Shown in pieces: positions 43,335-63,123 of a DNA stretch of 64,000 nt. The stretch is from Coriobacteriaceae bacterium (GTDB lineage: Bacteria; Actinomycetota; Coriobacteriia; Coriobacteriales; Eggerthellaceae). Each line of letters opens with the position of its first letter. Positions within the stretch are counted from its first letter, which is position 1. The position numbers and the translations under genes were made by a program. The stretch is from the NCBI GenBank assembly GCA_004555335.1, contig SFII01000001.1, positions 5,411 to 69,410 of the forward strand, given 5' to 3'. The notes under the pieces were generated by a model, which searched no databases, was not told where the DNA came from, and saw only the letters and a list, made by a program, of their open reading frames with translations.

Positions 43335-43360
43335 AAACGCACCCGCCGAGGTGCGTTTTC
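43335..43360 (+). terminator. rho-independent terminator after pth
   Basis: Stem AACGCACC / GGTGCGTT, followed by TTC. Confidence 0.6.
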
Positions 43361-43458
43361 GGTACAGGGGAACCCGGTTGCGCGTCCGCGTTGCGCCTGC
43401 AGCTGGGATTTGTGAGAAAATAAGCGGCGAGAAAACGCACAATGGAATAGGTCACGAC

Positions 43459-46400: not shown

Positions 46401-46797
46401 CGACCGCGACCATATGGCATGCGTATACCGCCAGCTCCGCACCATGCAGAGGGAGGCGGGACCGCGTCCGTTCGATGCGACGATTGCTGACATCGTTGCC
46501 GCCATCAACGATAATGGGGGCAGCCAGCAAACCGCTCCTGCCAGCGTGGCCTGCGCGATCTCCGTTTTCCGCGAGCTCGGCCTGGTCGAGACGGGTGCGG
46601 TTGGGGATGATGCGCGCCTGCGCTCCATACGCGTGGTCGATACCTGCCGGAAGGTGGAGCTTACCGATAGCGTGCGCTATAGAGAAGGGCTTGACGAGAT
46701 GGAGATCTTCCACTCGTTCTGCCAGTGGGTGCTTGCCAGCACCCAGGATGAGCTGCGCGACAGGATCATCGCGCCCATCCTGCCAGAGGAACTTTAG
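43459..46797 (+). CDS. recJ: RecJ single-stranded-DNA exonuclease fused to a RecQ-family helicase
   Basis: N-terminal half has DHH motifs VVFGDFDLDGISA, VDCG and ITDHHEP (43948-43965), plus DHHA1 GGHEAAVG. C-terminal half has Walker A MATGRGKS (45446-45469), DEAH VCDEAHHI (45757-45780), LALTATA, and the RecQ motif VI-like QMSGRAGRDG. It is a single uninterrupted 1112-aa frame. Confidence 0.85.
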   Translation: MSARFNILPADDQAVSALQTSLGLPRFIATTLVARGVCTPQAAREFLNPSLDRDWGNPYDIPGMDGVVEGLEGAIRAGRRIVVFGDFDLDGISATAVMTRGLRMLGADAVPFIPRRSDEGYGITEAAIERVMGESPDVLVTVDCGIACRDEVRILQRRGVEVFITDHHEPADLVPVDVPVCDPKLAPESPQSILAGVGVALKVIQALGARFGQPHLWREYTDLAALGTIADLMPMKGDNRALVADGVARMNEAPRPCIAALLGCAGVLDKPVAAVSLSFSIIPRLNAAGRMGDAQVSLDLLLSDDFGEAADKAEELEGINDRRRAIEAELVEIAMEQAVETYTGQRALVVSGDGWHEGVKGIVASRLVRTYGVPVILFTIDEDGQARGSGRSVGHVNLFKAVESCSDILTRFGGHEAAVGVTLPADRLAEFQDRLCEYMDSLPEENFHPRIAIDSCVDLSELTLENVALLDSLAPFGQENRQPCFLARDVLLTKARAVGAEKNHFSCMLTDGVNSVAGIMFHASDIDMLMRCDSVVNAAFEVQIDEWRGRKSVKAMIDSLAPVKMCGALEACLDLDRDSFVADLYACGDSVAAREAGSLDSGDGESAHELEQARDAWEARIAENPGSLRKQIVRALIGDGQLFRSQRQVLDALGRGDSVLTIMATGRGKSLTFQTFAAMQALSRHQASLLVYPLRALIADQAFHITRSLSRFGVTAEVLTGESSPDERCRIFEGLSRGGVDIVLTTPEFLDIHAEQFASSGRIGFLVCDEAHHIGLAKAGNRPSYARMGEVKQRLGNPAVLALTATANSDIARDIQESLGIKRRIFDESRRPNLKVEDRRGIKRRENYLANLIASGEKTVVYVNSRQQSVSLARQLRKMVPQMAPFVGFYNAGLSRDERKRVEEMFRDGDLHVLVSTSAFGEGVNIPDIRHVVLYHMPFNEIEFNQMSGRAGRDGEEAVVHFLFGQDDACINERLLLESTPDRDHMACVYRQLRTMQREAGPRPFDATIADIVAAINDNGGSQQTAPASVACAISVFRELGLVETGAVGDDARLRSIRVVDTCRKVELTDSVRYREGLDEMEIFHSFCQWVLASTQDELRDRIIAPILPEEL

Positions 46798-46803
46798 GAC
46801 TGA

Positions 46804-49272
46804 ATGACAATGGCTGAAGAAACGAAATACCAAGCGGTGGAAACCGCGGAGGTGATGCTCGGAGAGGGCATGAATTCCGCGGCGAAGAACGGTTGCTCCG
46901 AAGAGATGCTCGGAACCGCGCATTCCGCCGAATACAGCTTCACTTCGTCGGCGGCGGGCGCCGATCCCGCGAAGGTCACCAAATGCCAGTCTCCCGAAGA
47001 GCGCTTCGAGCGTCTGAGGGAGCTTGCATCCGAATACTTGGAGGAAAAGGACCTCGACTTCTTGGAGAGGGCCTTCAACTACGCCAACGAAGCCCACAAG
47101 GGCCAGTGCCGCAAGAGCGGCGAACCCTATATCACGCATCCCATCGAGGTCGCCATCATCCTGACCGACCTGCACATGGATGTGGAAACCCTGACTGCCG
47201 CCATCCTGCATGATACCGTTGAAGATACCGATGCCACCTTCGAAGAGGTTGCGAAGGTGTTCAACGAATCCGTCGCGCAGTTGGTAGAGGGCGTCACGAA
47301 GATCACCAGGATCGAAGTCGAGACCCTGACCGATCAGCAGGCCCAGACCATCCGCAAGATGCTCGTCGCCATGAACAAGGACATCCGAGTCATCGTCATC
47401 AAGCTTGCCGACCGCCTTCACAACATGCGAACCCTGTCTGCCCTGCGCGAGGACCGCCGTATCTTCAAGTCGCGTGAGACTTTGGAAATCTATGCGCCCA
47501 TCGCGCATCGCCTGGGTATCAATTCCATGAAGTGGGAGCTCGAGGACCTTGCCTTCTTCTACTTGGAGCCCGTCAAGTTCAAGCAGGTTTCCCGCCTGGT
47601 CGCCGAAAGCCGCCAGGAACGAGAGAAGTACCTCGCCTGCGTCATGAAAGAGCTCCAGGAGGAAATGGACTATCTGGGTATCGAATGCCAGATGATGGGC
47701 AGGCCCAAGCATCTGTATTCCATCTACCAGAAGATGGTCACCGGCGGTAAGGACTTCTCGGAAATCTACGACCTCATCGCCGTCCGCATCATCGTGAACT
47801 CGATCAACGAATGCTATTCGGCCCTCGGTGCGGTCCATTACCTGTGGCATCCCATGCCCGGGCGCTTCAAGGACTACATCGCGATGCCCAAGTACAACAT
47901 GTACCAGAGCCTGCATACCACCGTTATCGGTCCTGCTGCAAGGCCCTTGGAAGTGCAGATCCGTACCGAGGAGATGCACGAGATGAGCGAATACGGCGTT
48001 GCCGCCCACTGGAGGTACAAGGAAGGCGGCGGCGGGAAGAAGGATGCCGCCTTCGACCAGACCCTGGCATGGCTGCGCCAGATGGTCGACTGGCAGGACG
48101 AGACCCGCGACTCCCGCGAGTTCTTGAAGACCCTCAAGGTCGATCTTGCGGATTCCGAGGTGTACGTGTTCACCCCGAAGGGCGAGGTCGTCAGCCTGAG
48201 GGCGGGGTCCACTCCCGTCGACTTCGCCTATGCCATCCACACCGAAGTGGGCAACCATTGCGTGGGCGCCAAGGTGAACGCCGCGATTGTCCCCCTGTCC
48301 TACGAGCTCAAGATGGGCGACCGCGTGGAAATCCTGACCCAGAAGAGCGCGGCTCCCAACCGCAACTGGATCACGATGGTGAAAACGCCCAGCGCGCGAA
48401 GCAAGATCCGCTCGTATTTCAGCAAGGCATCGCGTTCGGATGATTTGCAGCTCGGCCACGATAAGCTGGTGCGCGAGATGCGCAAGAACGGCATGGGCAT
48501 CAACAATGCTCCCGGCCAGCGCGCCCTGCGCGAAGTCGCCGAGCATCTGGGCTTCAAGGACGTCGACGAGATGCTCATCGGCATCGGTTGCGATCGCGAG
48601 AGCGTCCAGCATGTTGCGAACCGCATGATCAAGCTCATGGTCGACCGTGAGGCGGAGGCGGAAGCGGAAGCCCAGCGCAGCTACAGCATGGGCATCAATA
48701 CGGGCAGGGCTATCCCCTTGCTCACCAACGTGAAGCATCCCAGCAAGAGGGAGACCCATTCCAGCAGCGGTATCGTGGTCAAGGGCGTGGAAGGCGTTCT
48801 CGTGCGCTTGGCGAATTGCTGCAATCCCGTTCCCGGCGATGACATCATGGGATTCGTCACCCGCGGCCGCGGCGTTTCCGTGCACAGGAGCGACTGCCCC
48901 AACGCGCAATCCCTCCAGTCTCAGAAAGAGCGCATCATCGATGTATCCTGGGATGCCAACCCCAAGGGCGATACCACGTACAAGGCGGAAGTGGTCATCG
49001 AGGCCGTCGACCGCATGAACCTGCTTCGCGATGTCATCGCGGTGCTTTCCGAAGAGGGGGCCAATGTGCTCTCGTCCTCTTCACGCGTGTCTCCCCGCGA
49101 CAATATGGCGGTGTTCAGGTTCCTCTTCCAGGTGAGCGACGTCGGGGCTATCAACAGCATCATCAGGAAGGCCGCGGCGGTCCATGGAGTCTTCGATGTC
49201 CACAGGACCATGCCGGGTGAAGATCCTGCCGCGGATGCGCGTAAGGCGATGAAGAAGGGAAGCATCAAGTGA
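46804..49272 (+). CDS. relA: bifunctional (p)ppGpp synthetase/hydrolase (RelA/SpoT homologue)
   Basis: HD domain (HPIEVAIIL...LHDTVEDT), synthetase domain (YIAMPKYNMYQSLHTTV), then TGS and ACT-like C-terminal regions. There is an N-terminal extension of about 65 aa. Confidence 0.95.
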   Translation: MTMAEETKYQAVETAEVMLGEGMNSAAKNGCSEEMLGTAHSAEYSFTSSAAGADPAKVTKCQSPEERFERLRELASEYLEEKDLDFLERAFNYANEAHKGQCRKSGEPYITHPIEVAIILTDLHMDVETLTAAILHDTVEDTDATFEEVAKVFNESVAQLVEGVTKITRIEVETLTDQQAQTIRKMLVAMNKDIRVIVIKLADRLHNMRTLSALREDRRIFKSRETLEIYAPIAHRLGINSMKWELEDLAFFYLEPVKFKQVSRLVAESRQEREKYLACVMKELQEEMDYLGIECQMMGRPKHLYSIYQKMVTGGKDFSEIYDLIAVRIIVNSINECYSALGAVHYLWHPMPGRFKDYIAMPKYNMYQSLHTTVIGPAARPLEVQIRTEEMHEMSEYGVAAHWRYKEGGGGKKDAAFDQTLAWLRQMVDWQDETRDSREFLKTLKVDLADSEVYVFTPKGEVVSLRAGSTPVDFAYAIHTEVGNHCVGAKVNAAIVPLSYELKMGDRVEILTQKSAAPNRNWITMVKTPSARSKIRSYFSKASRSDDLQLGHDKLVREMRKNGMGINNAPGQRALREVAEHLGFKDVDEMLIGIGCDRESVQHVANRMIKLMVDREAEAEAEAQRSYSMGINTGRAIPLLTNVKHPSKRETHSSSGIVVKGVEGVLVRLANCCNPVPGDDIMGFVTRGRGVSVHRSDCPNAQSLQSQKERIIDVSWDANPKGDTTYKAEVVIEAVDRMNLLRDVIAVLSEEGANVLSSSSRVSPRDNMAVFRFLFQVSDVGAINSIIRKAAAVHGVFDVHRTMPGEDPAADARKAMKKGSIK

Positions 49273-49967
49273 GTGCGATGGTGAATAAGGTGACGACCGG
49301 CTGCGCCCCGGTGGAGTACGTGGTTGTCGGCATGTTGGAGAATAACGTCTACTTCATCGAGGACGGCGAAGGCGGCGTCATCGTGTGCGACCCCAGCGAC
49401 CAGGTGGAAACGCTCCTTTCGGTGGCGGGGGACAGGAAGGTCTCCGCGATCTTCGTCACCCATAGGCACTTCGACCACGTCGGCGCCCTTGCCGCACTGA
49501 AGGAGGCGACGGGCGCACCCGTATATTGCGGTGCGATCGATGCGCCCGGTGTCGAAGGGCCTGAAGCCGGATCCCACGGCGTGGTGGTGGATTCCTGCAA
49601 GGTCGACTATCCCGTGGAAGACGGGCAGGCCATCACGGTGGGTAAGACCACCTGGAAGGTGATCCATACCCCCGGCCACACCAAGGGCGGCGTCTGCTAT
49701 TACCTCGACCCGGCGGATTGCGCCATCGAATGCGAGGGGCCGCGCTATCCGCTGCTCCTTTCCGGCGATACCCTGTTCCATCAGAGTACCGGGCGCACGG
49801 ATTTCGAGGGCGGCAGCGAGCAGGATATGCTCTACTCGATGAACCGTTTGGGCGAGCTTTCCGACGAAACCCTGGTGTTTCCCGGCCATTCTTCGCTGAC
49901 TACCATCGGAAGGAACAGGTTCTGGGTAATCGAGGCGTACGCCCGTTTCATCGGGATGGAGCAATAG
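49269..49967 (+). CDS. MBL-fold metallo-hydrolase (glyoxalase II-like)
   Basis: VTHRHFDHVGA is the HxHxDH motif, and HTPGHTKG follows. The GTG start overlaps the relA stop. Confidence 0.85.
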   Translation: MSAMVNKVTTGCAPVEYVVVGMLENNVYFIEDGEGGVIVCDPSDQVETLLSVAGDRKVSAIFVTHRHFDHVGALAALKEATGAPVYCGAIDAPGVEGPEAGSHGVVVDSCKVDYPVEDGQAITVGKTTWKVIHTPGHTKGGVCYYLDPADCAIECEGPRYPLLLSGDTLFHQSTGRTDFEGGSEQDMLYSMNRLGELSDETLVFPGHSSLTTIGRNRFWVIEAYARFIGMEQ

Positions 49968-50079
49968 CTCCAGGCGATTCTGCCTGGTACTGCTGTAAGG
50001 GAATCTTTACACTTGGGGCGAAGGGCTGCGGTAAAATCATTGGCTAGCGCCGTTGTCCCAGATGCTGTTAGGAGCGCAT

Positions 50080-50709
50080 ATGGCACGCAAGAAGAAGTAT
50101 GACTACTTCAAGACCTTCGAAGAGCAGGCGAAGACCGTCATCGAAGAGGCGGAACTGCTCGTCGAGGTTATCGAGAACTTTTCCTCCGCAGACGACATCA
50201 AGGCCGTGCTGCCGAAGGCCCATGAAATCGAAAATCGAGGCGACCAGCTGAATCACGAGAATTACAATGCGGTTGCCGTGGACTTCGTGACTCCCATCGA
50301 TCGCGAGGACCTGATCGATATCTCCAGTTCTCTCGACAGCATTATCGACCAGATGGAAGAAACCATCATGGAGTTCTACATGCTGCACATCCATAGCATG
50401 CACGAAAGCTGCCTGGAATTCGCCCGTTATGTGCTCGAGGCGTCCCGTGCCCTGCTTATCGCCGTCCAGGATTTCCAGAATTACAAGAAGTCCGCAACTT
50501 TCCGCGGTGCTATCGCGAAGGTGAACGATTGCGAAGAAGCGGCAGACGAGGCGTATCTGCGCATCATGCACAAGATGTACAGTGCCGATAATCCCGACCC
50601 CATCTACGTGCTGGTGTGGACGCGCATCTTCGATCAGCTGGAAGAATGCTGCGACGGTTGCGAGCATGTGGCAGACGCCCTGGAAACCGTCATGTTGAAG
50701 GATTCCTAG
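50080..50709 (+). CDS. DUF47 / PhoU-like (TIGR00153, YkaA-type) protein
   Basis: The N-terminus KKKYDYFKTFEEQAK and the helical repeats are typical of DUF47 phosphate-transport regulator-like proteins. RBS AGGAGCG. Confidence 0.75.
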   Translation: MARKKKYDYFKTFEEQAKTVIEEAELLVEVIENFSSADDIKAVLPKAHEIENRGDQLNHENYNAVAVDFVTPIDREDLIDISSSLDSIIDQMEETIMEFYMLHIHSMHESCLEFARYVLEASRALLIAVQDFQNYKKSATFRGAIAKVNDCEEAADEAYLRIMHKMYSADNPDPIYVLVWTRIFDQLEECCDGCEHVADALETVMLKDS

Positions 50710-50756
50710 GCCGAAAGGCTGCTTCGGGTTGCATTACGGCATAACTTGCACACATG

Positions 50757-50790
50757 CGGGCCGGCGGGTTCATCCTGCCGGCCCGTTTTC
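50757..50790 (+). terminator. rho-independent terminator after the DUF47 gene (possibly bidirectional)
   Basis: Stem GGGCCGGC / GCCGGCCC, followed by GTTTTC. Confidence 0.65.
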
Positions 50791-50912
50791 GCGTCTGAAG
50801 GAGGATTACTTGCGTACTCGGCGATTTCATGGGCTTATGGTTGCCGGCGGTAGGCCATGCCCAAAGAGGGCTCCGGCGTGCGGCAATCTGCAGTAGTGCG
50901 CCGTTTTCCGCG

Positions 50913-51716
50913 TCAGAGCCTGTGCTTATGGCGCGTCTTGTCGCGTCCTCGGGTGGAATGGCGGTTCTTCTTCACGCTCTTGCGCGCGTGGGCGGCAAGC
51001 GAGGAGATGTCTGCAGGTCCCAGGTCGGCCAGCTTGTCCTTGCCTTTCAGGGCGCGGACGGGTTTGGCGAGCGCATCTGCCATGGGGATGGTCAGGTCGC
51101 GTGCGGGCTTGGTGCGCCAGCCGAATTCAAGCGACGCGATCCTGATTCCGATGCCCAAAAGCACGCAGATCAGCGCCGACCAGTGGTCCAGGATATGGTA
51201 GGTGCGCATGATGGCGTAGGCGCTCGCGCTGATAGCCGCGGCGGATGCATAGAGGGATCCGGGGGTGAATGCCACGATGTGGTGGTTGAGTGCGACGTCG
51301 CGAACGATACCGCCTCCGACTGCGGTGAGCATTCCCAGCAGGATGGCAGGGACGATGCCCAATCCGGCGGCGATTGCCTTGCCTGCGCCGATGACTGCCC
51401 AAAGGCCGCATTGGATGATGTCCATGATCTCGATAAGGGGGTCGGCCAGTTTGACGAGCCTTCCGAAATAGAAGACCACCACGGCGCAGATCACGCAGGC
51501 GATGATGAGCTCGGGCCTTTGGAAGGCGTAGATGCCGTAGTCCTGCAACAGCACATCGCGCATGACTCCGCCGAACAGGCCGATGATGATCGCCATCATG
51601 ATGGTGCCGAGGATGTCGTATTTCTCGCGCGTTGCAGCGAGTGCGCCGGTCATGGCGCTGGTAACGGTTGCGGTCAATTCGAACCAGAACGGAATGGCGA
51701 GTCCGGTATCTAGCAT
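50913..51716 (-). CDS. trimeric intracellular cation channel (TRIC / UPF0126, YadS-like) membrane protein
   Basis: Two internal repeats each carry the GG..RD motif (GLFGGVMRDVL and AVGGGIVRDVA). ATG at 51716 is preceded by GGAGG. The C-terminal tail is basic. Confidence 0.8.
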   Translation of the reverse strand: MLDTGLAIPFWFELTATVTSAMTGALAATREKYDILGTIMMAIIIGLFGGVMRDVLLQDYGIYAFQRPELIIACVICAVVVFYFGRLVKLADPLIEIMDIIQCGLWAVIGAGKAIAAGLGIVPAILLGMLTAVGGGIVRDVALNHHIVAFTPGSLYASAAAISASAYAIMRTYHILDHWSALICVLLGIGIRIASLEFGWRTKPARDLTIPMADALAKPVRALKGKDKLADLGPADISSLAAHARKSVKKNRHSTRGRDKTRHKHRL

Positions 51717-54656: not shown

Positions 54657-54915
54657 CTAGTTTCGGCCGAGCAGCTTATCGATGATGCGTGCGATCAGGC
54701 CCTTCTTCTGGGGGGTGCGGACAGGGTCTTGCGGTGCTTGCATTTCCTGGGCTTGCTCGGCCCCGCCGCTGAAAGGCTTGATAGGCACTCCGCCGGCACT
54801 GCGTACGCATGCAGGTTCCGGTTCGGGCTCTGCGGGCCAACCGCCGAGCGGGGGGGATGGGTGCGCCGCCTGCGCTGCGCAGGCCGATGTACTCGTTTTC
54901 CTTCTTTGCAGACAT
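54657..54915 (-). CDS. small PPK1-tail-like protein, reading frame interrupted at a C7 homopolymer (85 aa if one C is removed)
   Basis: RBS AAGGAGAG plus ATG 54915 gives MSAKKENEYIGLRSAGGAPIPP. After the run at 54850-54856, the shifted frame reads LGGWPAEPEPEPACVRSAGGVPIKPFSGGAEQAQEMQAPQDPVRTPQKKGLIARIIDKLLGRN and stops at 54657-54659. The as-sequenced frame becomes Arg-rich nonsense and stops at 54676. Confidence 0.55.
54771..54812 (-). repeat. motif copy ACVRSAGGVPIKPF (small ORF, shifted frame)
   Basis: 31 of 42 nt are identical to the ppk1 segment 55438-55479. The peptide motif is shared. Confidence 0.6.
54850..54888 (-). repeat. motif copy IGLRSAGGAPIPP (small ORF, initiating frame)
   Basis: About 28 of 39 nt are identical to the corresponding ppk1 segment. 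It ends in the C7 run. Confidence 0.55.
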
Positions 54916-55059: not shown

Positions 55060-55095
55060 TCGAACGCCCCCGAATCGGTATTCGGAGGCGTTCGA
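55060..55095. other. strong intergenic hairpin between ppk1 and the small ORF
   Basis: 16 bp with one mismatch (TCGAACGCC-C-CCGAAT / ATTCGG-A-GGCGTTCGA) and a CGGT loop. There is no U-tail on the minus strand. The plus strand has CTCTTTT 6 nt downstream. Confidence 0.6.
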
Positions 55096-55137: not shown

Positions 55138-58100
55138 TTATTTGTTGCGTCCGAACAGGCGGGCGAAGAAACCCTTCTTCGTTGCGGGCTTGGCGTCAGC
55201 GGATGCGCTGTGCTTAGGTGCGCCTGGCGTTGCCTTGGGTGTTTCAACGGGTGCAGGCTCGGCGGCAGGTGCGGGCTCGGGTGCGGGTTCTGCAACCGTG
55301 ACAGGCTGGGTTTCGGCTGCTTCGGGCTCGCTTGCGGGCGTTTCCATTGCAGGATCGTCGGCTTCCTGTCCGGTTTCCTCGATAGGCTGTGTGTTTTCGG
55401 GCGCGGGTTCGTCGGCCTGCTTGCCGGAATTTCCGCTATAGGGTGCGATGGGCGCACCGCCGGCGCTGCGTACGCATACGGGCTCGATCGCGATGCGGAC
55501 AGGTGCTTCCTCGGGTGCTGCTTCGTGCGCTTCATCGGCGGGCTCGCAGGGCGCCTCGTCGGTTCGATCGGCTTCGGGTGCCTGGGGTCCTTCTGCGGGA
55601 GCCTCTTCGATGGCTGCAGCTTCATCTACGGATTCCGCTTCCTGAGCAGGCTCGACGCTTGCAGATGCCTGGGTGTCCCGATCCTGCTTGGCCTCAGGGG
55701 CGTCTGCCTGTTCGGGTTCCTTTTCTTCGGCGGTTTCCTGGGCTGCGGTGGCGAGGCCGCCCATTTCGGCAAAGGCACGGGCAGCAGCCTTGATGAAGGG
55801 TTTCAGGGCTTCGTCGTCGGCGTTGGGCATGTCGTGCTTGAGTGCCTCGCGGAAAACCTCTTCCAGGCTGTTGACCGCATTGCGTTCGCGTGCGGCGGCC
55901 TGGCGGTCGGATTTAGCCTGCATGCACAGCTTCTCGTAGGCGCTCTTTTCCTCCATCTCGCTGGCAAGCGCATCTTCGGAGCGCTGCTTGGTGATGGCGA
56001 TCAGGGCTTCCTGGGCGTCGAAGAGCTTGCCGGCAGCACGGTCTTCCTCGCTTGCGAGTTCGCCCAGCTCGGTGTAGGTTCCGTCAGGCCTCAGCTCGCG
56101 CAGTTTCGCGGTGTCCTTCAGGCAGGTATCGATGTATTCCATGATCTTGGCGCGGGGCTCTTCGCCCAGGACGGGCCATGCGATCTCGATGCGCTTGTCC
56201 ATGTTGCGCGTCATCAGGTCGGCGCTGGACAGGTACAGCTTCATGGTGTCGTGGGAGCCGAAGCCGTAGATGCGGCTGTGCTCAAGCAGCCTGCCGACGA
56301 TGGAGACCACGCGCACGTTGTCGGTGTAGCCTTCCACGCCCGGCAGGATGCAGCTGATGCCGCGGACCAACAGGGTGGTGGGCACGCCCGCCTGCGATGC
56401 CTCGACGATCTTCAGGATGACGTCCTTGTCGGTGATGGAGTTGGTCTTGAAGAACAGCCCGCAGGGCTCGCCCTTCTTCGCAAGCTCGATCTGGCCGTCG
56501 ATTTCCTCGCAGATGCGCTGCTTGATCTGCAGCGGGGCGACGCACAGCCTGGTGTAGGCGCGCGAGGTGCTTTCCATACCCATGTTGCGGAAGAATTCGG
56601 TGGCATCGCGCCCGATCACGGGATCGGTGGTGATGAAGGAGAAGTCGGTGTACAGGCGCGCGGTCTTCTCGTTGTAATTGCCGGTGCCCAGCTGGGTGAT
56701 GGTCTGGAATCCGTCTTCGGTGCGGCGGATGATGGAGCAGATCTTGCTGTGCACCTTGTAGTCGTGGAAGCCGTAGATGACGTTGCAGCCGGCTTCCTCG
56801 AAGCGCTGGGACCAACGGATGTTATTGCTCTCGTCGAAGCGGGCGCGCAGCTCGAACAGCGCGGAGACCTCGATGCCGGCATCGGCGGCGGCGATGAGGG
56901 CCTCTGCCAGATGCGACCTGCTTGCCAAGCGGTACAGGGTGATATTGATGGCGACAACGTTGGGGTCTGCGGCGGCTTCGCGCAAAAGCTGCACGAAGGG
57001 GTCCATGCTCTCATAGGGGTAGGAGAACAGCAGCTCGCGCTTCTGGACCTGGTCGATGATGCGCTCGTTGCGCTTCGCTTCTGCGGGCCATGCCGGCGCG
57101 AAGGGCGTGCTGGTGTGGGCCTGGCGCAATTCGTCGCCTACCAGGCTGGGCAGCGAGAAGGCGTAGCCCATGTTGAAGGGCACGGAGGTGGTGAAGACCT
57201 GGTGCGGCTTCAAGTCGGTGCGCGAGAGCAGGAACTTGCTCACCGTTTCGGAGAGCTTCCTGCGGCTTTCCAAGCGCACGGGTGCCAGGCGCGAGCGCTT
57301 TTTCAGGATCTTCTTCATGTGCTCGCGATAGTCGTCATCGGCTTCGTCGGCGCCTTCGGTTGCGTCCAGGTCGGCGTTGCGGGTGATGCAGATGATGTTG
57401 GAGTGCTTGATGGTGTACATCGAGAAGATCTCCGAGAGGAAGGCCTCCAGGGCGTCTTCGAGCAGGATGTAATTGAATCCCTTGCCAGGGAGCGCGATCA
57501 GGCGGTTCGCCTTGCTGGGCAGGGGGATGAGCCCCAGCGTGACGCCTTCGGCGCCCAGCGCCTTGAGCCTCTTGCGCTCTTCCTTTGCACGGCGCTTTTC
57601 CGCATCGCTCATCTCCGACTTCTTCTTGAGGTTCTGCTCCTCGAGTCGGACGATGATGAAGATCTCGCCGCTTTCCAAGTGGGGGAAGGGATGGCGTCCG
57701 TTGACGATCTGCGGGGTGAGCAGGGGGATCACGTTCGCGCGCAGATGGGTGCGAACGTGCTTGAGCTGCTCTTCGTTGAGCTCGCTGAACTGGAACCTGC
57801 GGATGCCGGCCTGCGCCAACTCGCCTTCCAGGTTCTTGTAAATGGATTCTTGGATGGGGTACAGCTCGCGTACGCGCGCATAGATGGCGTCGAGCTGCTC
57901 ATCGGGGGTCATGAGCGTCTTGGAGTCGAGAAGCTCTTTATTCACCAGGGAAAGGTCGACCAGGCTTCCGACGCGAACCATGAAGAATTCTCGCAGGTTG
58001 CTTTCGAAGATGGATACGAACTGGAGCCTTTCCAGCAAGGGAATGGACGGGTCTGCACCCTGATCGAGCACCCTCTTGTTGAATTCGAGCCAGGAAAGCT

Positions 58101-58164
58101 CGCGATTCTGCATGAAGGGCATGCGTTGCTTGCGTTTCTGCTCCGGATTGGCGTTGTCGGCCAT
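55138..58164 (-). CDS. ppk1: polyphosphate kinase 1 with a C-terminal low-complexity extension of about 280 aa
   Basis: The N-terminus FMQNRELSWLEFNKRVL and the remaining PPK1 domains run to about residue 725. An acidic, Pro/Ala-rich tail follows, containing VCVRSAGGAPIAPY (55438-55479) and ending KKGFFARLFGRNK (55141-55179). Confidence 0.93.
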   Translation of the reverse strand: MADNANPEQKRKQRMPFMQNRELSWLEFNKRVLDQGADPSIPLLERLQFVSIFESNLREFFMVRVGSLVDLSLVNKELLDSKTLMTPDEQLDAIYARVRELYPIQESIYKNLEGELAQAGIRRFQFSELNEEQLKHVRTHLRANVIPLLTPQIVNGRHPFPHLESGEIFIIVRLEEQNLKKKSEMSDAEKRRAKEERKRLKALGAEGVTLGLIPLPSKANRLIALPGKGFNYILLEDALEAFLSEIFSMYTIKHSNIICITRNADLDATEGADEADDDYREHMKKILKKRSRLAPVRLESRRKLSETVSKFLLSRTDLKPHQVFTTSVPFNMGYAFSLPSLVGDELRQAHTSTPFAPAWPAEAKRNERIIDQVQKRELLFSYPYESMDPFVQLLREAAADPNVVAINITLYRLASRSHLAEALIAAADAGIEVSALFELRARFDESNNIRWSQRFEEAGCNVIYGFHDYKVHSKICSIIRRTEDGFQTITQLGTGNYNEKTARLYTDFSFITTDPVIGRDATEFFRNMGMESTSRAYTRLCVAPLQIKQRICEEIDGQIELAKKGEPCGLFFKTNSITDKDVILKIVEASQAGVPTTLLVRGISCILPGVEGYTDNVRVVSIVGRLLEHSRIYGFGSHDTMKLYLSSADLMTRNMDKRIEIAWPVLGEEPRAKIMEYIDTCLKDTAKLRELRPDGTYTELGELASEEDRAAGKLFDAQEALIAITKQRSEDALASEMEEKSAYEKLCMQAKSDRQAAARERNAVNSLEEVFREALKHDMPNADDEALKPFIKAAARAFAEMGGLATAAQETAEEKEPEQADAPEAKQDRDTQASASVEPAQEAESVDEAAAIEEAPAEGPQAPEADRTDEAPCEPADEAHEAAPEEAPVRIAIEPVCVRSAGGAPIAPYSGNSGKQADEPAPENTQPIEETGQEADDPAMETPASEPEAAETQPVTVAEPAPEPAPAAEPAPVETPKATPGAPKHSASADAKPATKKGFFARLFGRNK
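55438..55479 (-). repeat. motif copy VCVRSAGGAPIAPY in the PPK1 tail
   Basis: Shares both the peptide motif and nucleotide similarity with 54771-54812 and 54850-54888. Confidence 0.6.
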
Positions 58165-58481: not shown

Positions 58482-60209
58482 ATGCTTGAGAAAATTGATT
58501 TCGATGTCGAGAAGATCACCAAGGAAGAATACAAGCCCGTACGCGACGAGCTTGTGAACCGCCTGGTCGTTCTGCAGCAGGAAGCCCGATCCAAGGGTAT
58601 CGGTTTGGTGGTGCTGTTCGAGGGCTGGAACGGTGCCGGCCGTGGCGGTCGCATCTCCGATCTGATGTACAATCTCGACGCCCGTGCAACCTCCGTCCAT
58701 GTGACCCAGAGCGAAGAAACCGCGAATGCCAGGATGTTCCGCGACCGGGGTTACGGCGCCACCGACTTCTATCCCCTCATGAAGGAATTCTGGGATGCGC
58801 TCGACATGCGCGGCAACATGACCCTCTATGATCGCGGCTGGTACGACATCGCCGCGAGGGAGGCCTTCTACGCGTATGCCGACAAGCATCCCCTGAAGAA
58901 GGGCAAGAGGTCCGATGCGAGCAAGAAGGAACTCGAGGAAATCAAGACGGTTTTCGCAAACTCGATCGAATCCGCCGAACGTTTCGAGCATCAGCTGGTC
59001 GAAGACGGCTATGTGGTGGTGAAGTTCTTCCTGCATATCACCAAGGCGGAGCAGGAACGCCGCCTGAAGCGCCTCGCTTCCGACCCCAACACCGCATGGC
59101 GCGTCGAGCCCGGTGCCCTGAAGAGGATCAACGACCATGACTTCTACTACGATGTCTTCGACAAGCTGATCGAGCGCACCAACTTCGACTTCGCACAGTG
59201 GGTCGTCGTGAATGCCGAAGACCGCCGCCGCGCCAATCTTACCATCGCGCGCACCCTGGTCAACGCACTCGACGAGGCGGTCAACCGTGCAGCCGATCCC
59301 GAGGTGGCGGCAGCTGCGGCGAAGGCGGCATCCAATTCCGCCGGTGCATCCGCCCAGGTGGAAGGCGACGAGCGCGTCCGCACCCCCGAGCAGAATGCGG
59401 CAATCCGCGAAGCGAACGAAGCGGCGGCGGCATTGCAGCATTCCTTCGCTCCCGCTTCCTCCAAGTTCCCCATCGAGGCGGCCTATCCCACCCTCAAGGG
59501 CGTCGACTACCATCTGCGCCTGGATAGGGAAAAGTACAAGGTCATCCTGAAGGAAGAGCAGAAGAGGCTCTACGACCTGGAATTGGAGATGTACCTGCGC
59601 CGTATCCCCATGATCTTCATGTTCGAAGGCCAGGATGCCGCGGGCAAGGGCGGCAGCATCAAGCGCATCGCCCAGGCCCTGGACGCGCGCAGCTACACCA
59701 TCTATCCCAGTCCTGCTCCCACCAAGCCCGAGCTGATGCATCCCCACCTGTGGCGCTACTGGACCCGCCTTCCCAAGGCAGGCCACGTGGGCATCTACGA
59801 CCGCAGCTGGTATGGCCGCGTGCTCGTGGAAAGGGTCGAGGGATTCGCAAGCCCCAGCACTTGGGCGCGTGCGTATGACGAGATCAACGAGTTCGAGCGC
59901 GACCTGGTGGATTGGGGTGCCGTGCTGCTGAAGTTCTGGGTCGAGATCGACCGTGACGAGCAGATGAAGCGCTTCGTCGCCCGCGAGCAGAATCCCGACA
60001 AGGTGTGGAAGATCACCGAAGAGGACTGGCGCAACCGCGACAAGTACCCCCAGTACCGCGAGGCCGTGGAGGATATGTTCCGCCTCACCTCCACCGAATA
60101 CGCCCCCTGGACCATCCTGGAAAGCAACGACAAGCTCTATGCCCGCGTCAAGGCCCTGAAGACCATCAACGCGGCATTGGAGAAGCGCTTGGAGCAGGAA
60201 AAGATCTAA
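58482..60209 (+). CDS. ppk2: two-domain polyphosphate kinase 2 (PPK2 class II / polyphosphate:AMP phosphotransferase-like)
   Basis: Two tandem PPK2 domains. The first has VVLFEGWNGAGRGG (a Walker A variant). The second has IFMFEGQDAAGKGG...YDRSWYGRVLVERVEGF. RBS TAAGGAG. Confidence 0.9.
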   Translation: MLEKIDFDVEKITKEEYKPVRDELVNRLVVLQQEARSKGIGLVVLFEGWNGAGRGGRISDLMYNLDARATSVHVTQSEETANARMFRDRGYGATDFYPLMKEFWDALDMRGNMTLYDRGWYDIAAREAFYAYADKHPLKKGKRSDASKKELEEIKTVFANSIESAERFEHQLVEDGYVVVKFFLHITKAEQERRLKRLASDPNTAWRVEPGALKRINDHDFYYDVFDKLIERTNFDFAQWVVVNAEDRRRANLTIARTLVNALDEAVNRAADPEVAAAAAKAASNSAGASAQVEGDERVRTPEQNAAIREANEAAAALQHSFAPASSKFPIEAAYPTLKGVDYHLRLDREKYKVILKEEQKRLYDLELEMYLRRIPMIFMFEGQDAAGKGGSIKRIAQALDARSYTIYPSPAPTKPELMHPHLWRYWTRLPKAGHVGIYDRSWYGRVLVERVEGFASPSTWARAYDEINEFERDLVDWGAVLLKFWVEIDRDEQMKRFVAREQNPDKVWKITEEDWRNRDKYPQYREAVEDMFRLTSTEYAPWTILESNDKLYARVKALKTINAALEKRLEQEKI

Positions 60210-61246: not shown

Positions 61247-61365
61247 GACGGCGCGCCCGCATTACCCCGGTTTCGGGCATGCGCCCCTGCGCACTTGTCC
61301 CGATGCCCCCAATCCTTCACAATTGGCTTCGCAGATGCGTTGCCTCGAGCATAAGGAGTATCCAC

Positions 61366-62490
61366 ATGACAGAACGTAATAACACCGCTGCCAATGCCGC
61401 GCCGGAAGAGCAGGTCACGTACGCCCAGGCTGGCGTGGATACTGCCGAGGGCGCCCGTGCCGTGCATGCCATCAAGGACGCCGTGCATTCCACCTACCGC
61501 GATGAGGTAGTGGGCGACATCGGCGGGTTCGGCGGCCTGTTCAGCATCGCCGCGGCAAAGGATATGGAAGACCCGCTGCTGGTTTCCGGCACCGACGGCG
61601 TGGGAACCAAGCTGCAGGTTGCCAAGATCGCCGGCAAGCATGGCACCGTGGGCGTGGACCTGGTTGCCATGTGCGTAAACGACATCCTGGCATCCGGTGC
61701 AGAGCCCCTGTTCTTCCTGGACTACATCGCTATCGGCAAGCTGAAGAGCGAGGCCGTGGCCGAAGTGGTCGCAGGCATCGCCGATGGCTGCCGCCAGGCG
61801 GGCTGCGCCCTGATCGGCGGCGAGATGGCCGAGCATCCCGGCGTCATGGATCCCGATGAGTACGACCTGAGCGGCTTCACCGTGGGCATCGTCGACCGCA
61901 CGAAGATGCTCGACCCCGCGAACGTCTGCGAGGGCGACGTGCTGCTGGGCCTGGCTTCGAGCGGCCTGCATTCCAACGGCTATTCCCTGGCACGCAAGGT
62001 ATGCACGGAAGGCAAGGACGTGGAAGAGCTGCGCCAGCCCCGCGAATGCCTGGGCGGCCGTTGCGTTCAGGACGCCCTGCTGGAGCCCACCCGCATCTAC
62101 GTCAAGCCCGTGCTCAAGGCCCTGCGCGAGCATGGCTGCGGCATCCATGCAGTCGCCCATATTACCGGCGGCGGCATCACCGAGAACCTCAACCGCGCCC
62201 TTCCCGAAAACCTGGACGCCCAGGTGAACGTGGGCACGTGGGATATGCCTGCGATCATCCCCTTCGTCTGCAATGCCGCCCATCTGACCGAGGCGGAGGC
62301 GCTTAAGACCTTCAACATGGGCGTCGGCATGGTGCTGATCGTCAAGCCCGAGGCTGCAGATGCCGTTGCCGCCACCCTGCAGGCGGAAGGCGAGAAGGTC
62401 TTCAATATCGGAACCATCATCCCCGGTGCGGGCGAGGTCGTCTACACGAACGAAGATGCCCTGTTCCCCGCGGGCTTTTCCTGCGAATAA
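61366..62490 (+). CDS. purM: phosphoribosylformylglycinamidine cyclo-ligase (AIR synthetase)
   Basis: YAQAGVD, SGTDGVGTKL, DLVAMCVNDI, HSNGYSL. RBS AAGGAGTA. Confidence 0.95.
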   Translation: MTERNNTAANAAPEEQVTYAQAGVDTAEGARAVHAIKDAVHSTYRDEVVGDIGGFGGLFSIAAAKDMEDPLLVSGTDGVGTKLQVAKIAGKHGTVGVDLVAMCVNDILASGAEPLFFLDYIAIGKLKSEAVAEVVAGIADGCRQAGCALIGGEMAEHPGVMDPDEYDLSGFTVGIVDRTKMLDPANVCEGDVLLGLASSGLHSNGYSLARKVCTEGKDVEELRQPRECLGGRCVQDALLEPTRIYVKPVLKALREHGCGIHAVAHITGGGITENLNRALPENLDAQVNVGTWDMPAIIPFVCNAAHLTEAEALKTFNMGVGMVLIVKPEAADAVAATLQAEGEKVFNIGTIIPGAGEVVYTNEDALFPAGFSCE

Positions 62491-62505
62491 GGGAAGGCGG
62501 ACAGC

Positions 62506-63123
62506 ATGGTACAGGCACTGAACATCGGCGTTCTGCTTTCCGGTTCCGGCACGAACCTGCAGGCCATCATCGACAGGATCGAAGACGGCAGCCTGAACTG
62601 CCGCATCGTGAAGGTGATCTCCTCCAGGCCCGATGCGTACGGCTTGAAGCGCGCCGAAGCGGCGGGTATCCCCACACTGGCCTTGAACCGCGACGTATAC
62701 GCCGATCCTATCGCCGCGGATGAGCTGATCGTCCGCGAGATGCGCGAGGCGGGTGCGGAATACATCGTGATGGCGGGCTATATGCGCATGGTGCGCGATC
62801 CTTTGCTCGATGCCTATCCCGACCGGGTCCTCAACCTGCATCCCGCATTGCTCCCTTCCTTCAAGGGCGCCCATGCCATCCAGGATGCCTTCGATGCAGG
62901 CGTGAAGGTGACGGGCGTAACCGTGCATTTCGCGAACACGGAATACGACAAGGGCCCCATCGTTGCCCAGAGGGCGGTCGAGGTGCTGGAAGATGACACC
63001 CTGGATAGCCTGGAAGAGCGCATCCATGCGACGGAGCATGCGCTCTATCCCGAGGTGCTGGGCCTGCTTGCTGCAGGGGCTGTTACCGTCGGCGAAGACC
63101 GCAAGGTCCATATCGCCAGGTAG
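62506..63123 (+). CDS. purN: phosphoribosylglycinamide formyltransferase
   Basis: GVLLSGSGTNLQAI, NLHPALLPSFKG, GVTVHF......D.GPI. Confidence 0.95.
   Translation: MVQALNIGVLLSGSGTNLQAIIDRIEDGSLNCRIVKVISSRPDAYGLKRAEAAGIPTLALNRDVYADPIAADELIVREMREAGAEYIVMAGYMRMVRDPLLDAYPDRVLNLHPALLPSFKGAHAIQDAFDAGVKVTGVTVHFANTEYDKGPIVAQRAVEVLEDDTLDSLEERIHATEHALYPEVLGLLAAGAVTVGEDRKVHIAR

What the first reader, a model, noticed from the sequence alone, without database searches (positions are those of the whole stretch)
55138..55977. PPK1 has a ~280-aa acidic/Pro-rich C-terminal extension ending in a MinD-like membrane-targeting helix
The recognisable PPK1 domains end near residue 725 of 1008. The remainder is low complexity, rich in E, A, P, D and Q (for example EAAPEEAPV, EPAPEPAPAAEPAPVE). 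It contains one conserved-looking island (VCVRSAGGAPIAPYSG) and terminates in KKGFFARLFGRNK. That terminus closely resembles the experimentally defined membrane-targeting amphipathic helix at the E. coli MinD C-terminus (KKGFLKRLFGG). E. coli-type PPK1 is about 690 aa and has no such appendage. The sequence therefore suggests this PPK1 is tethered to the membrane, or to another surface, through a long flexible linker. That would matter for where polyphosphate granules form.
Basis: partly seen in the sequence, partly recalled or inferred. Interest (0 to 1): 0.7.

Follow-up and report, generated by a model that had tools for sequence, protein, structure and literature searches.

The report
PPK1 with acidic linker and membrane-helix tail
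This gut actinobacterium's polyphosphate-making enzyme carries a long floppy acidic tail ending in a short helix almost identical to the one that sticks the cell-division protein MinD to membranes; the terminal peptide is conserved across the family (Eggerthella lenta included) and recurs in some clostridia, which suggests how the enzyme is held at the cell membrane.

Summary
ORF 55138-58164 (-) encodes a 1008-aa PPK1. Solved PPK1 structures align only to residues 20-696. After the core come three predicted helices (to about 812). Then comes a roughly 180-aa disordered Ala/Glu/Pro-rich linker with net charge about -36. The protein ends in KKGFFARLFGRNK, which matches 8 of 10 positions of the E. 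coli MinD membrane-targeting sequence KKGFLKRLFG.

The tail is not a frameshift: a 99.7%-identical 1008-aa protein sits on 14 other contigs. The motif KK-x-[G/S]-ΦΦ-x-R-ΦΦ ends 53 of 61 non-redundant Eggerthellaceae PPK1s, and variants of it end E. lenta's and others, although the linkers are hypervariable. The closest relative shows core 98%, linker 41% and terminus 94% identity. The same peptide ends 19% of distant, normal-length PPK1s, some from Clostridia.

The hydrophobic moment of the window's own peptide is modest, equal to MinD's and no better than shuffles. The case rests on conservation, not on that statistic.

The "island" VCVRSAGGAPIAPYSG is not family-wide. It recurs twice in a small gene just downstream. 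That gene encodes an 85-aa disordered protein with its own terminal amphipathic helix, and a poly-C tract frameshifts it in this window.

Best reading: a multivalent peripheral membrane tether. It is a new variant of known kinds and has not been tested experimentally.

The parts
55942..58164 (-). PPK1 catalytic core, residues 1-741 (N, middle, C1 and C2 domains plus the C-terminal helix 717-738 covered by the NCBIfam PPK1 models that reach ~741); the phospho-histidine motif K-V-H-S-K is present
   Evidence: Pfam and NCBIfam hits. PDB PPK1 chains align to residues 20-696. AF2 pLDDT is mostly above 90. The KxHxK motif is present, and Gln at the E. coli H454 position is the norm in this clade.
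55729..55941 (-). Two extra predicted helices, residues 742-812, specific to this Coriobacteriia branch of PPK1
   Evidence: AF2 helices 742-778 and 784-812, with pLDDT falling from about 88 to about 60. Alignment occupancy is 0.67-0.88. Identity to L001 is 93%.
55195..55728 (-). Intrinsically disordered acidic Ala/Glu/Pro-rich linker, residues 813-990
   Evidence: pLDDT is about 35 with no secondary structure. Net charge is about -36. Identity to L001 is 41% with 25 gapped positions, against 98% in the core. Across the family the linker is 24-261 aa long and net negative in 49 of 55.
55432..55479 (-). The island VCVRSAGGAPIAPYSG (residues 896-911): a lineage-specific short motif, repeated twice in the downstream small gene
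   Evidence: DNA repeats D1 and D4 at 74-75% identity. Among the 51 genome loci plus the window, the motif is found only in the window and L001; a metagenome scan added L073. It is absent from other family members.
55141..55179 (-). Terminal peptide KKGFFARLFGRNK (residues 996-1008): MinD-like putative membrane-targeting amphipathic helix
   Evidence: Matches E. coli MinD KKGFLKRLFG at 8 of 10 positions. AF2 predicts helix 999-1004. The family consensus is and the enrichment statistics.
55060..55095 (.). Inverted repeat (16-nt arms, 94% complementary, 4-nt loop) between ppk1 and the small gene; possibly a terminator hairpin without a T-run
   Evidence: the repeat finder pair I3. The consensus terminator scan found nothing here.
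54657..54915 (-). Small gene downstream of ppk1, preceded by the RBS AAGGAGAG. When intact it encodes an 85-aa disordered protein with two RSAGGxPIxP motifs and a C-terminal amphipathic helix KKGLIARIIDKLLGRN. A one-base insertion frameshifts it in this window.
   Evidence: Six of seven other assemblies of the species have the intact 85-aa ORF. The homologs P0324-P0327 conserve both motifs and the helix. AF2 predicts disorder plus helix 73-81 at pLDDT about 85.
54850..54856 (-). Poly-C tract (G7 on the + strand) inside the small gene. It is C6 in the intact alleles, C7 here and, by inference from the reading frame, C8 in P0328.
   Evidence: A second tract at 54710-54715 is lengthened in L053.

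Best explanation
The gene encodes a catalytically competent PPK1. Its C-terminus is built as core, then two extra helices, then a long acidic intrinsically disordered linker, then a short cationic amphipathic helix. The terminal helix most likely works as a MinD-type membrane-targeting sequence. Its Phe/Leu face would insert into the cytoplasmic leaflet while the flanking Lys/Arg contact anionic lipid head groups. One copy is probably weak, as it is for MinD. PPK1 is oligomeric, so two to four copies would give avidity. The acidic linker would act as a flexible spacer that is repelled by the anionic membrane, by polyP and by DNA. It would keep the catalytic core tethered, but mobile, within tens of nanometres of the membrane, so that polyP synthesis is biased to the cell periphery. 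Shown here: the anatomy, the sequence match to the MinD membrane-targeting sequence, the conservation pattern and the taxonomic spread. Inferred: membrane binding, avidity through oligomerisation, the spacer role, and any effect on where granules form.
For: (1) The terminus is 8/10 identical to the E. coli MinD membrane-targeting sequence read from MG1655. That sequence is an experimentally established, transplantable lipid-binding amphipathic helix and is too weak as a monomer (PMC8155659, which cites Szeto 2002/2003 and Hu & Lutkenhaus 2003). (2) Fifty-three of 61 non-redundant Eggerthellaceae PPK1s end in K-K-[P/R/H]-[G/S]-ΦΦ-x-R-ΦΦ-[G/H/S]-[R/K]. No acidic residue occurs from -6 to +4, and the hydrophobicity period peaks at 85-90 degrees. 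The motif's base rate is 3.4% in core windows and 0.14% in linker windows. (3) The sequence drifts between genera (GFFARLFGR, SLLVRFLSLFVR, NFLTRLLRKLFG, SILGRILGALGRRR). Cationic amphipathic character and the extreme C-terminal position are kept, and many variants have a µH of 0.6-0.8. That pattern is expected for lipid binding and less so for a specific protein pocket. (4) Constraint differs sharply by segment against the closest species: core 98%, linker 41%, terminus 94%. (5) AF2 gives a disordered linker (pLDDT about 35) and a terminal helix. (6) Twenty-four of 127 distant PPK1 representatives of normal length end in the same kind of peptide, against 3.8% of internal windows. Named examples come from Oscillospiraceae and Ruminiclostridium. 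The helix is therefore separable from the long linker. (7) E. coli PPK1 is described as membrane-associated and tetrameric although it is not an integral membrane protein (PMC9520863). (8) The adjacent small protein is disorder plus the same kind of terminal helix, one turn longer.
Against: No experiment exists. The window peptide's µH at 100 degrees (0.36-0.41) is no better than shuffles (p = 0.43) and ranks 183rd of 998 windows in the protein. Its Wimley-White interfacial energy is slightly unfavourable (+1.25 kcal/mol, against +0.43 for MinD) before helix-folding and electrostatic terms are added. The near-invariant central Arg and the G/S cap are more sequence-specific than a generic lipid-binding helix needs, so a protein partner remains possible. 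The peptide is strongly basic and PPK1's product is a polyanion, so polyP binding is an obvious alternative, with a precedent in Caulobacter. Six or seven of 42 species genomes lack the peptide. I could not check whether these organisms' own MinD or FtsA carry similar termini.
Confidence: 0.6

Rival explanations
1. The basic terminal peptide targets PPK1 to its own product. It would bind polyP granules or nascent polyP electrostatically, as the positively charged C-terminal tail of Caulobacter Ppk1 does, and not to the membrane.
For: Caulobacter Ppk1 has a 22-residue, pI 11.8 C-terminal tail that E. coli lacks. Removing 16 residues mislocalises the enzyme away from granules and impairs granule production (PMC3806658). 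The window's last 18 residues carry net +6. Family members without the helix end at about 740-750 aa in purely polybasic tails (...AKSKKKRKK...SKGKKK...TTKKQTKK). That suggests the basic character can be the common denominator.
Against: The conserved features are the large hydrophobic pairs ΦΦ-x-R-ΦΦ, which polyP binding does not need. Some lineages have low charge but keep the aromatic residues (HGFFWRLFH, z = +1). A -36 linker attached to a polyP-binding peptide would oppose granule entry. The match to MinD covers the hydrophobic positions specifically.
Confidence: 0.2
2. The terminal peptide is a short linear motif that docks onto a protein. The partner could be an unidentified protein or the PPK1 core itself, giving autoinhibition or oligomerisation. 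This would resemble the way the FtsZ C-terminal peptide binds FtsA, ZipA or SepF at the end of a disordered linker.
For: Arg is nearly invariant at the centre (49/53) and G/S at -4 (48/53). The architecture of globular core, variable disordered linker and conserved terminal peptide is that of FtsZ (established knowledge). The lineage-specific RSAGGxPIxP motif, shared by the tail and the neighbouring small protein, looks like a second docking motif.
Against: No partner is identifiable. The hydrophobic residues interchange freely (F/L/I/W/V) and helix length varies between genera, which is atypical for a fixed pocket. The same peptide type recurs on distant clostridial PPK1s.
Confidence: 0.15
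3. The tail is an annotation or assembly artefact (a missed stop or a frameshift), or it is functionless low-complexity read-through.
For: GC3 drops from 0.86 in the core to 0.58 in the linker. The linker is hypervariable.
Against: A 1008-aa protein differing at only 3 residues is on 14 independent contigs. Extensions of 100-400 aa occur in nearly all of the 120 closest homologs. The in-frame terminus is conserved through hypervariable linkers in many genera.
Confidence: 0.02

Closest known systems
MinD C-terminal membrane-targeting sequence (E. coli ...KKGFLKRLFGG)
   Same: A short cationic amphipathic peptide at the extreme C-terminus. The pattern K-K-G-ΦΦ-x-R-ΦΦ-G matches both the window's peptide and the family consensus. 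The hydrophobic moment and interfacial energy are similarly modest. Dependence on oligomerisation for useful affinity is likely.
   Different: The host protein is a polyphosphate kinase, not a ParA/MinD ATPase. The peptide is separated from the fold by a disordered linker of about 180 aa instead of following it directly. There is no nucleotide-switch logic for membrane cycling.
Caulobacter crescentus Ppk1 C-terminal localisation tail (Henry & Crosson 2013, PMC3806658)
   Same: A PPK1-specific C-terminal appendage absent from E. coli PPK1. It is positively charged, lies outside the catalytic domains and determines where the enzyme sits.
   Different: The Caulobacter tail is 22 residues, described only as highly basic, and directs the enzyme to polyP granules at chromosome-defined positions. 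Here there is a 180-aa acidic linker and a conserved hydrophobic face that points to lipid.
FtsZ C-terminal linker plus conserved C-terminal peptide; the FtsA and RNase E membrane-targeting helices
   Same: The architecture is the same: a globular enzyme, a disordered linker of variable length and sequence, and a conserved terminal anchoring element. RNase E likewise embeds a membrane-targeting helix in a long disordered region (PMC4435900 abstract).
   Different: The FtsZ peptide binds adaptor proteins, not lipid, in most species. RNase E's helix is internal. None of these is a polyP enzyme.
E. coli-type PPK1 (688 aa; PDB 1XDO/1XDP)
   Same: The four-domain PPK1 core is the same. The E. coli enzyme is reported to be membrane-associated and oligomeric (PMC9520863).
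   Different: E. coli PPK1 ends ...IKSLEQPE, with no linker and no amphipathic basic peptide. The structural basis of its membrane association is not explained by such a motif.

Membership tests
Polyphosphate kinase 1 (PPK1) | Four-domain architecture (N, middle/head, C1, C2) above the curated score thresholds | tested here: met
   Pfam PF13089, PF02503, PF17941 and PF13090 all score far above their gathering scores. TIGR03705 scores 689.9 bits against a cut-off of 465.85. PDB PPK1 chains match at E about 1e-94.
Polyphosphate kinase 1 (PPK1) | Autophosphorylated catalytic histidine in the K-x-H-x-K motif of domain C1 (E. coli H435) | tested here: met
   K-V-H-S-K with H472 aligns to E. coli K-I-H-A-K. 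The E. coli H454 position is Gln here, as in 78 of 119 clade representatives.
Polyphosphate kinase 1 (PPK1) | Enzymatic synthesis of polyP from ATP | not testable with these tools
   This needs an enzyme assay.
MinD-type C-terminal membrane-targeting sequence (functional class, not a homologous family) | A short peptide at the extreme C-terminus with flanking Lys/Arg and an i, i+1, i+4, i+5 array of large hydrophobic residues | tested here: met
   KKGFFARLFGRNK against MinD KKGFLKRLFGG.
MinD-type C-terminal membrane-targeting sequence (functional class, not a homologous family) | Statistically significant alpha-helical amphipathicity (hydrophobic moment at 100 degrees) | tested here: inconclusive
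   For the window peptide µH is 0.36-0.41, no better than shuffles (p = 0.43) and about equal to E. coli MinD at 0.41. Many orthologous termini reach 0.6-0.8. The family profile peaks at 85-90 degrees and still gives 0.48 at 100 degrees.
MinD-type C-terminal membrane-targeting sequence (functional class, not a homologous family) | Predicted helical conformation | tested here: met
   AF2 predicts helix 999-1004 at low-to-moderate confidence (pLDDT about 50-60) after a linker at pLDDT about 35. The paralogous peptide in the small protein is helical at pLDDT about 85.
MinD-type C-terminal membrane-targeting sequence (functional class, not a homologous family) | Direct binding to phospholipid bilayers, and being necessary and sufficient for membrane localisation | not testable with these tools
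   This needs liposome co-sedimentation and GFP-fusion localisation.
Caulobacter-type PPK1 granule-localisation tail | A short, highly basic C-terminal tail directly following domain C2 | tested here: not met
   The basic peptide here is separated from C2 by about 290 residues, including a -36 acidic linker, and it has a conserved hydrophobic face. Family members that lack the helix do end in short polybasic tails.

The most novel reading that the evidence does not exclude
The PPK1 tail and the adjacent 85-aa tail-only protein form a small regulatory module. Both are membrane-anchored disordered chains that display the same RSAGGxPIxP docking motif for an unknown partner. The small protein, switched on and off by slippage at its poly-C tracts (C6, C7 and inferred C8 alleles are seen in different assemblies), would compete with or scaffold PPK1 at the membrane. 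Peripheral polyphosphate synthesis would then become phase-variable in this gut lineage. More broadly, a MinD-like terminal helix would be the long-missing structural basis for PPK1 membrane association in many Gram-positive anaerobes.
Probability: 0.12. Interest if true: 0.75.

Novelty: new variant of a known kind. Interest (0 to 1): 0.55.

Why it matters
PPK1 has been called membrane-associated since its purification, but no membrane-binding element has been defined. Where polyP granules form is understood in only a few Proteobacteria. A conserved MinD-like helix at the end of a disordered acidic tether gives a concrete hypothesis for a whole family of human and animal gut Actinobacteria, including Eggerthella lenta, and for some Clostridia. 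It can be tested by deletion: remove the last 13 residues and look at localisation and liposome binding. It is also a clean natural example of the design seen in FtsZ and RNase E, namely enzyme, variable disordered spacer and conserved anchor. Linker length (24-261 aa) and charge vary naturally across species, which could be used to ask how tether length sets the site of polymer synthesis. PPK1 is also a proposed anti-virulence target, so accessory targeting elements may matter for inhibitor strategies.

Tried and rejected
(1) Hydrophobic moment as a decisive test. For an 11-13-mer it does not discriminate: the peptide, its shuffles and the genuine MinD sequence all score about 0.35-0.41. I relied on the family-level pattern instead.

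(2) A crude "MTS-like" classifier (at least 4 hydrophobic residues, net charge of +2 or more). It had a 12% internal false-positive rate, so I replaced it with the stricter ΦΦ-x-[RKH]-ΦΦ anchor, whose base rate is 3.4-3.8%.

(3) Searching the 5.8-billion-protein set with the 17-aa terminal peptide to find other protein families with the same ending.

(4) A metagenome scan for the RSAGGxPI island, back-translated. It returned 102 stretches, 80 of them as loci. Only one of those 80 (L073) is a true relative, a near-identical PPK1 tail. The others are unrelated GC-rich soil sequences, including a recurrent ParB-like family that contains RSAGGAPI by chance. No further carriers of the motif were found.

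(5) Scanning about 0.5 Mb of Eggerthellaceae loci plus the window for other ORFs ending in the motif. Only PPK1s and the small downstream gene of this species turned up.

(6) Consensus promoter and terminator scans around the ppk1 3' end found nothing.

(7) Tandem-repeat search in the tail found only two weak 12-nt arrays. The linker is low-complexity sequence, not a true repeat array.

(8) Worry that Gln at the E. coli H454 position marks an inactive enzyme. I rejected this because Gln is the majority state in the clade.

(9) Literature searches for any description of a PPK1 amphipathic or membrane-targeting helix found none. The library is limited to open-access papers and bioRxiv.
Full report
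**1. The observation**

The minus-strand ORF 55138..58164 encodes a 1008-aa protein ending ...ATKKGFFARLFGRNK* (coordinates re-checked). The four Pfam PPK1 domains occupy residues 19-703. NCBIfam PPK1 models extend to about residue 741, and residues 729-1008 match no family. Solved PPK1 structures (1XDO, 2O8R and newer entries) align to residues 20-696 only.

An AlphaFold2 model built on a 61-sequence alignment is confident for the core. It adds helices at 717-738, 742-778 and 784-812 with falling confidence. Residues 811-997 are unstructured (pLDDT about 35), and a short helix reappears at 999-1004.

Residues 742-1008 are 23% Ala, 15% Glu, 12% Pro and 6% Asp. The linker 806-990 has net charge -36, and the last 18 residues have net +6. 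For reference, MG1655 MinD ends ...EEEKKGFLKRLFGG, and MG1655 PPK1 is 688 aa and ends ...IKSLEQPE. KKGF-x-x-RLFG is shared with the MinD membrane-targeting sequence at 8 of 10 positions.

**2. Not an artefact**

A 1008-aa protein differing at three residues is encoded on 14 other metagenomic contigs. Almost all of the 120 closest homologs are 840-1111 aa long. The organism belongs to the Eggerthellaceae (Coriobacteriia); named relatives include Adlercreutzia, Gordonibacter, Slackia, Denitrobacterium, Hugonella, Curtanaerobium and Raoultibacter. The 892-aa PPK1 of Eggerthella lenta (WP_009306446.1) belongs to the same group and ends ...KKPSLLVRFLSLFVR.

**3. The terminal peptide is the conserved element**

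Among 61 non-redundant homologs, 53 carry ΦΦ-x-[R/K/H]-ΦΦ within the last 24 residues. Aligning them on the central basic residue gives K-K-[P/R/H]-[G/S]-ΦΦ-x-R-ΦΦ-[G/H/S]-[R/K]. Arg is present in 49 of 53, G/S at -4 in 48 of 53, and no acidic residue occurs from -6 to +4.

The same regular expression hits 3.4% of 24-aa windows in the cores and 0.14% in the linkers. The binomial P of about 1e-69 overstates independence, because the sequences are related, but the contrast is clear.

The actual residues drift between genera (GFFARLFGR, GFFWRLFH, SLLVRILSKFVR, NFLTRLLRKLFG, SILGRILGALGRRR). The cationic amphipathic character and the terminal position persist, and many variants have a µH of 0.6-0.8.

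Against the closest species (L001), identity is 98% in the core, 93% in helices 742-812, 41% in the linker with 25 gapped positions, and 94% in the last 18 residues. Across the family the linker varies from 24 to 261 aa and is net negative in 49 of 55.

In 42 complete PPK1 genes from distinct species genomes, 22 pass the strict motif and about 13 more carry looser basic/hydrophobic variants. Six or seven lack it. Those that lack it tend to stop near residue 740-750 with purely polybasic ends.

**4. The helix is older or more recurrent than the linker**

In an exhaustive search of clusters at 50% identity, PPK1 representatives below about 50% identity to the query are mostly 680-740 aa. Yet 24 of 127 end in the same motif, for example ...KKGIFARILDFFRK...KKKSFFARLFTRRKR...KKKSWLKRLFG and ...SLFKRIFHK. 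The internal-window rate is 3.8% (P about 7e-11). Two of these could be named, and they are clostridial: Oscillospiraceae/Ruminococcaceae and Ruminiclostridium. What is peculiar to the Coriobacteriia branch is therefore the long acidic spacer and the two extra helices.

**5.

At 100 degrees the window peptide has a µH of 0.36-0.41. That is indistinguishable from shuffles of the same residues (p = 0.43) and ranks 183rd of 998 windows in the protein. It is equal to E. coli MinD at 0.41.

The maximum lies at 70-80 degrees for the peptide and 85-90 degrees for the family profile, as expected for an i, i+1, i+4, i+5 array over only two turns. Wimley-White interfacial energies are +1.25 kcal/mol for the peptide, +0.43 for MinD and -2.0 for the E. 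lenta version. The median for linker 13-mers is +6.6.

The test neither refutes nor proves the idea. The peptide is as weakly amphipathic as the genuine MinD sequence, which is reported to be too weak as a monomer and to need dimerisation (PMC8155659).

**6. Mechanism**

I consider a multivalent peripheral membrane tether the best explanation (confidence about 0.6). PPK1 is described as oligomeric and membrane-associated although it is not an integral membrane protein (PMC9520863). Two to four weak helices would give avidity. The polyanionic disordered linker would act as a spacer repelled by membrane, polyP and DNA.

These last steps are inference. So is any effect on where granules form.

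The main rival (about 0.2) is polyP or granule targeting by the basic residues. Caulobacter Ppk1 shows the precedent: its 22-residue, pI 11.8 tail is required for correct localisation (PMC3806658). The conserved hydrophobic pairs and some low-charge aromatic variants argue against this rival but do not exclude it.

A protein-docking motif in the style of the FtsZ C-terminal peptide (about 0.15) is suggested by the near-invariant Arg and G/S cap.

**7. The island and a neighbouring gene**

VCVRSAGGAPIAPYSG is not conserved in the family (occupancy 0.11). It occurs only in the nearest relatives L001 and L073.

It is, however, repeated at the DNA level (72-75% identity) in the 480 bp downstream of ppk1, together with a second copy of the segment that encodes the terminal helix. 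After a hairpin (55060-55095) and a strong RBS, an ATG at 54915 opens a small gene.

In six of seven other assemblies of the species this gene is an intact 85-aa ORF: MSAKKENEYIGLRSAGGAPIPPLGGWPAEPEPEPACVRSAGGVPIKPFSGGAEQAQEMQAPQDPVRTPQKKGLIARIIDKLLGRN. It has only four intact homologs, plus one frameshifted allele (P0328). In the four, both RSAGGxPIxP motifs and the terminal helix are invariant. AF2 predicts disorder plus a helix at 73-81. The protein is in effect a free-standing miniature of the distal PPK1 tail, with a helix one turn longer.

In the window it is frameshifted by a C7 tract (54850-54856) where the intact alleles have C6. P0328, seen on two contigs, reads in the frame expected of a C8 allele. 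L053 has an extra C in a second tract. This could be phase variation or homopolymer error. I could not tell which.

**8. Context**

The neighbourhood has a phosphate and stringent-response flavour. It holds relA/spoT (46804-49272), a DUF47/PhoU-like gene (50053-50709), ask, asd, the small gene and ppk1. A two-domain PPK2 that scores best as polyphosphate:AMP phosphotransferase (58482-60209) is divergently transcribed from ppk1. A sortase, purM and purN follow. The order PPK2, ppk1, small gene, asd is kept in other assemblies of the species.

**9. Novelty**

I found no paper that describes an amphipathic or membrane-targeting helix, or a disordered acidic extension, on PPK1. The searchable library is open-access only.

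The components are known kinds: PPK1, MinD-type membrane-targeting sequences, PPK1 localisation tails, and the design of a disordered linker followed by a terminal anchor. Their combination, and its wide conservation in gut Coriobacteriia and some Clostridia, appears to be undescribed. I rate it a new variant of a known kind, with interest 0.55.

Noticed in passing
window 54657-54915 (-), poly-C at 54850-54856 and 54710-54715: A small gene downstream of ppk1 encodes, when intact, an 85-aa disordered protein with two RSAGGxPIxP motifs and a C-terminal amphipathic helix. A C7 tract frameshifts it in the window. Other assemblies carry C6 (intact) or, by inference from the reading frame of P0328, C8; one assembly varies at a second poly-C tract. 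This is either phase variation or homopolymer error.
   Followed up: partly
window 58482-60209 (+): A two-domain PPK2 of 575 aa is divergently transcribed from ppk1. Its best match is polyphosphate:AMP phosphotransferase (TIGR03708, 501.9 bits, just under the cut-off of 547.65). The pairing is conserved in other assemblies of the species.
   Followed up: partly
window 61279-63123 (+) and E. coli locus L060: purM and purN lie next to the ppk genes here, with a sortase gene in between. E. coli MG1655 has the order purM-purN-ppk-ppx. This is either an old linkage or a coincidence.
   Followed up: no
window 43351-46797 (+): An 1148-aa ORF fuses RecJ-like DHH/DHHA1/RecJ_OB domains to a DEAD/Helicase_C helicase module.
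   Followed up: no
window 46804-51713 (+): The genes upstream of ask/asd are relA/spoT (822 aa), a metallo-beta-lactamase-fold protein, a DUF47/PhoU-like protein, and a 294-aa ORF with no family hit that might be its transporter partner. The locus therefore has a phosphate and stringent-response flavour.
   Followed up: partly
PPK1 residue 491 (window about 56692-56694): The position equivalent to E. coli PPK1 H454, which I recall from the E. coli mutagenesis literature as essential (not checked here), is Gln in all 120 Eggerthellaceae homologs and in 78 of 119 more distant representatives. That residue is therefore not universally required.
   Followed up: partly
loci L031, L032, L033, L034, L040 (PPK1 C-termini): In one sub-lineage, three PPK1s (L031, L034, L040) run to 1150-1230 aa. 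Three of the five tails (L032, L033, L040) carry a second internal GFF motif (...DGFFARQ..., ...PGFFDKQ...) upstream of a truncated terminal one (...KGGFFSRRRK, ...RKGFFRR), each preceded by the conserved IEMPP.
   Followed up: no
loci L061, L063, L065, L068 and many others from the metagenome scan: A recurrent soil-metagenome protein family reads ...V-RSAGGAPI-GAYRDPLGGR...QPTPFQRDLSPTHAKRLA... (ParB/sulfiredoxin-like by eye). It shares the octapeptide with the island, probably by chance.
   Followed up: no
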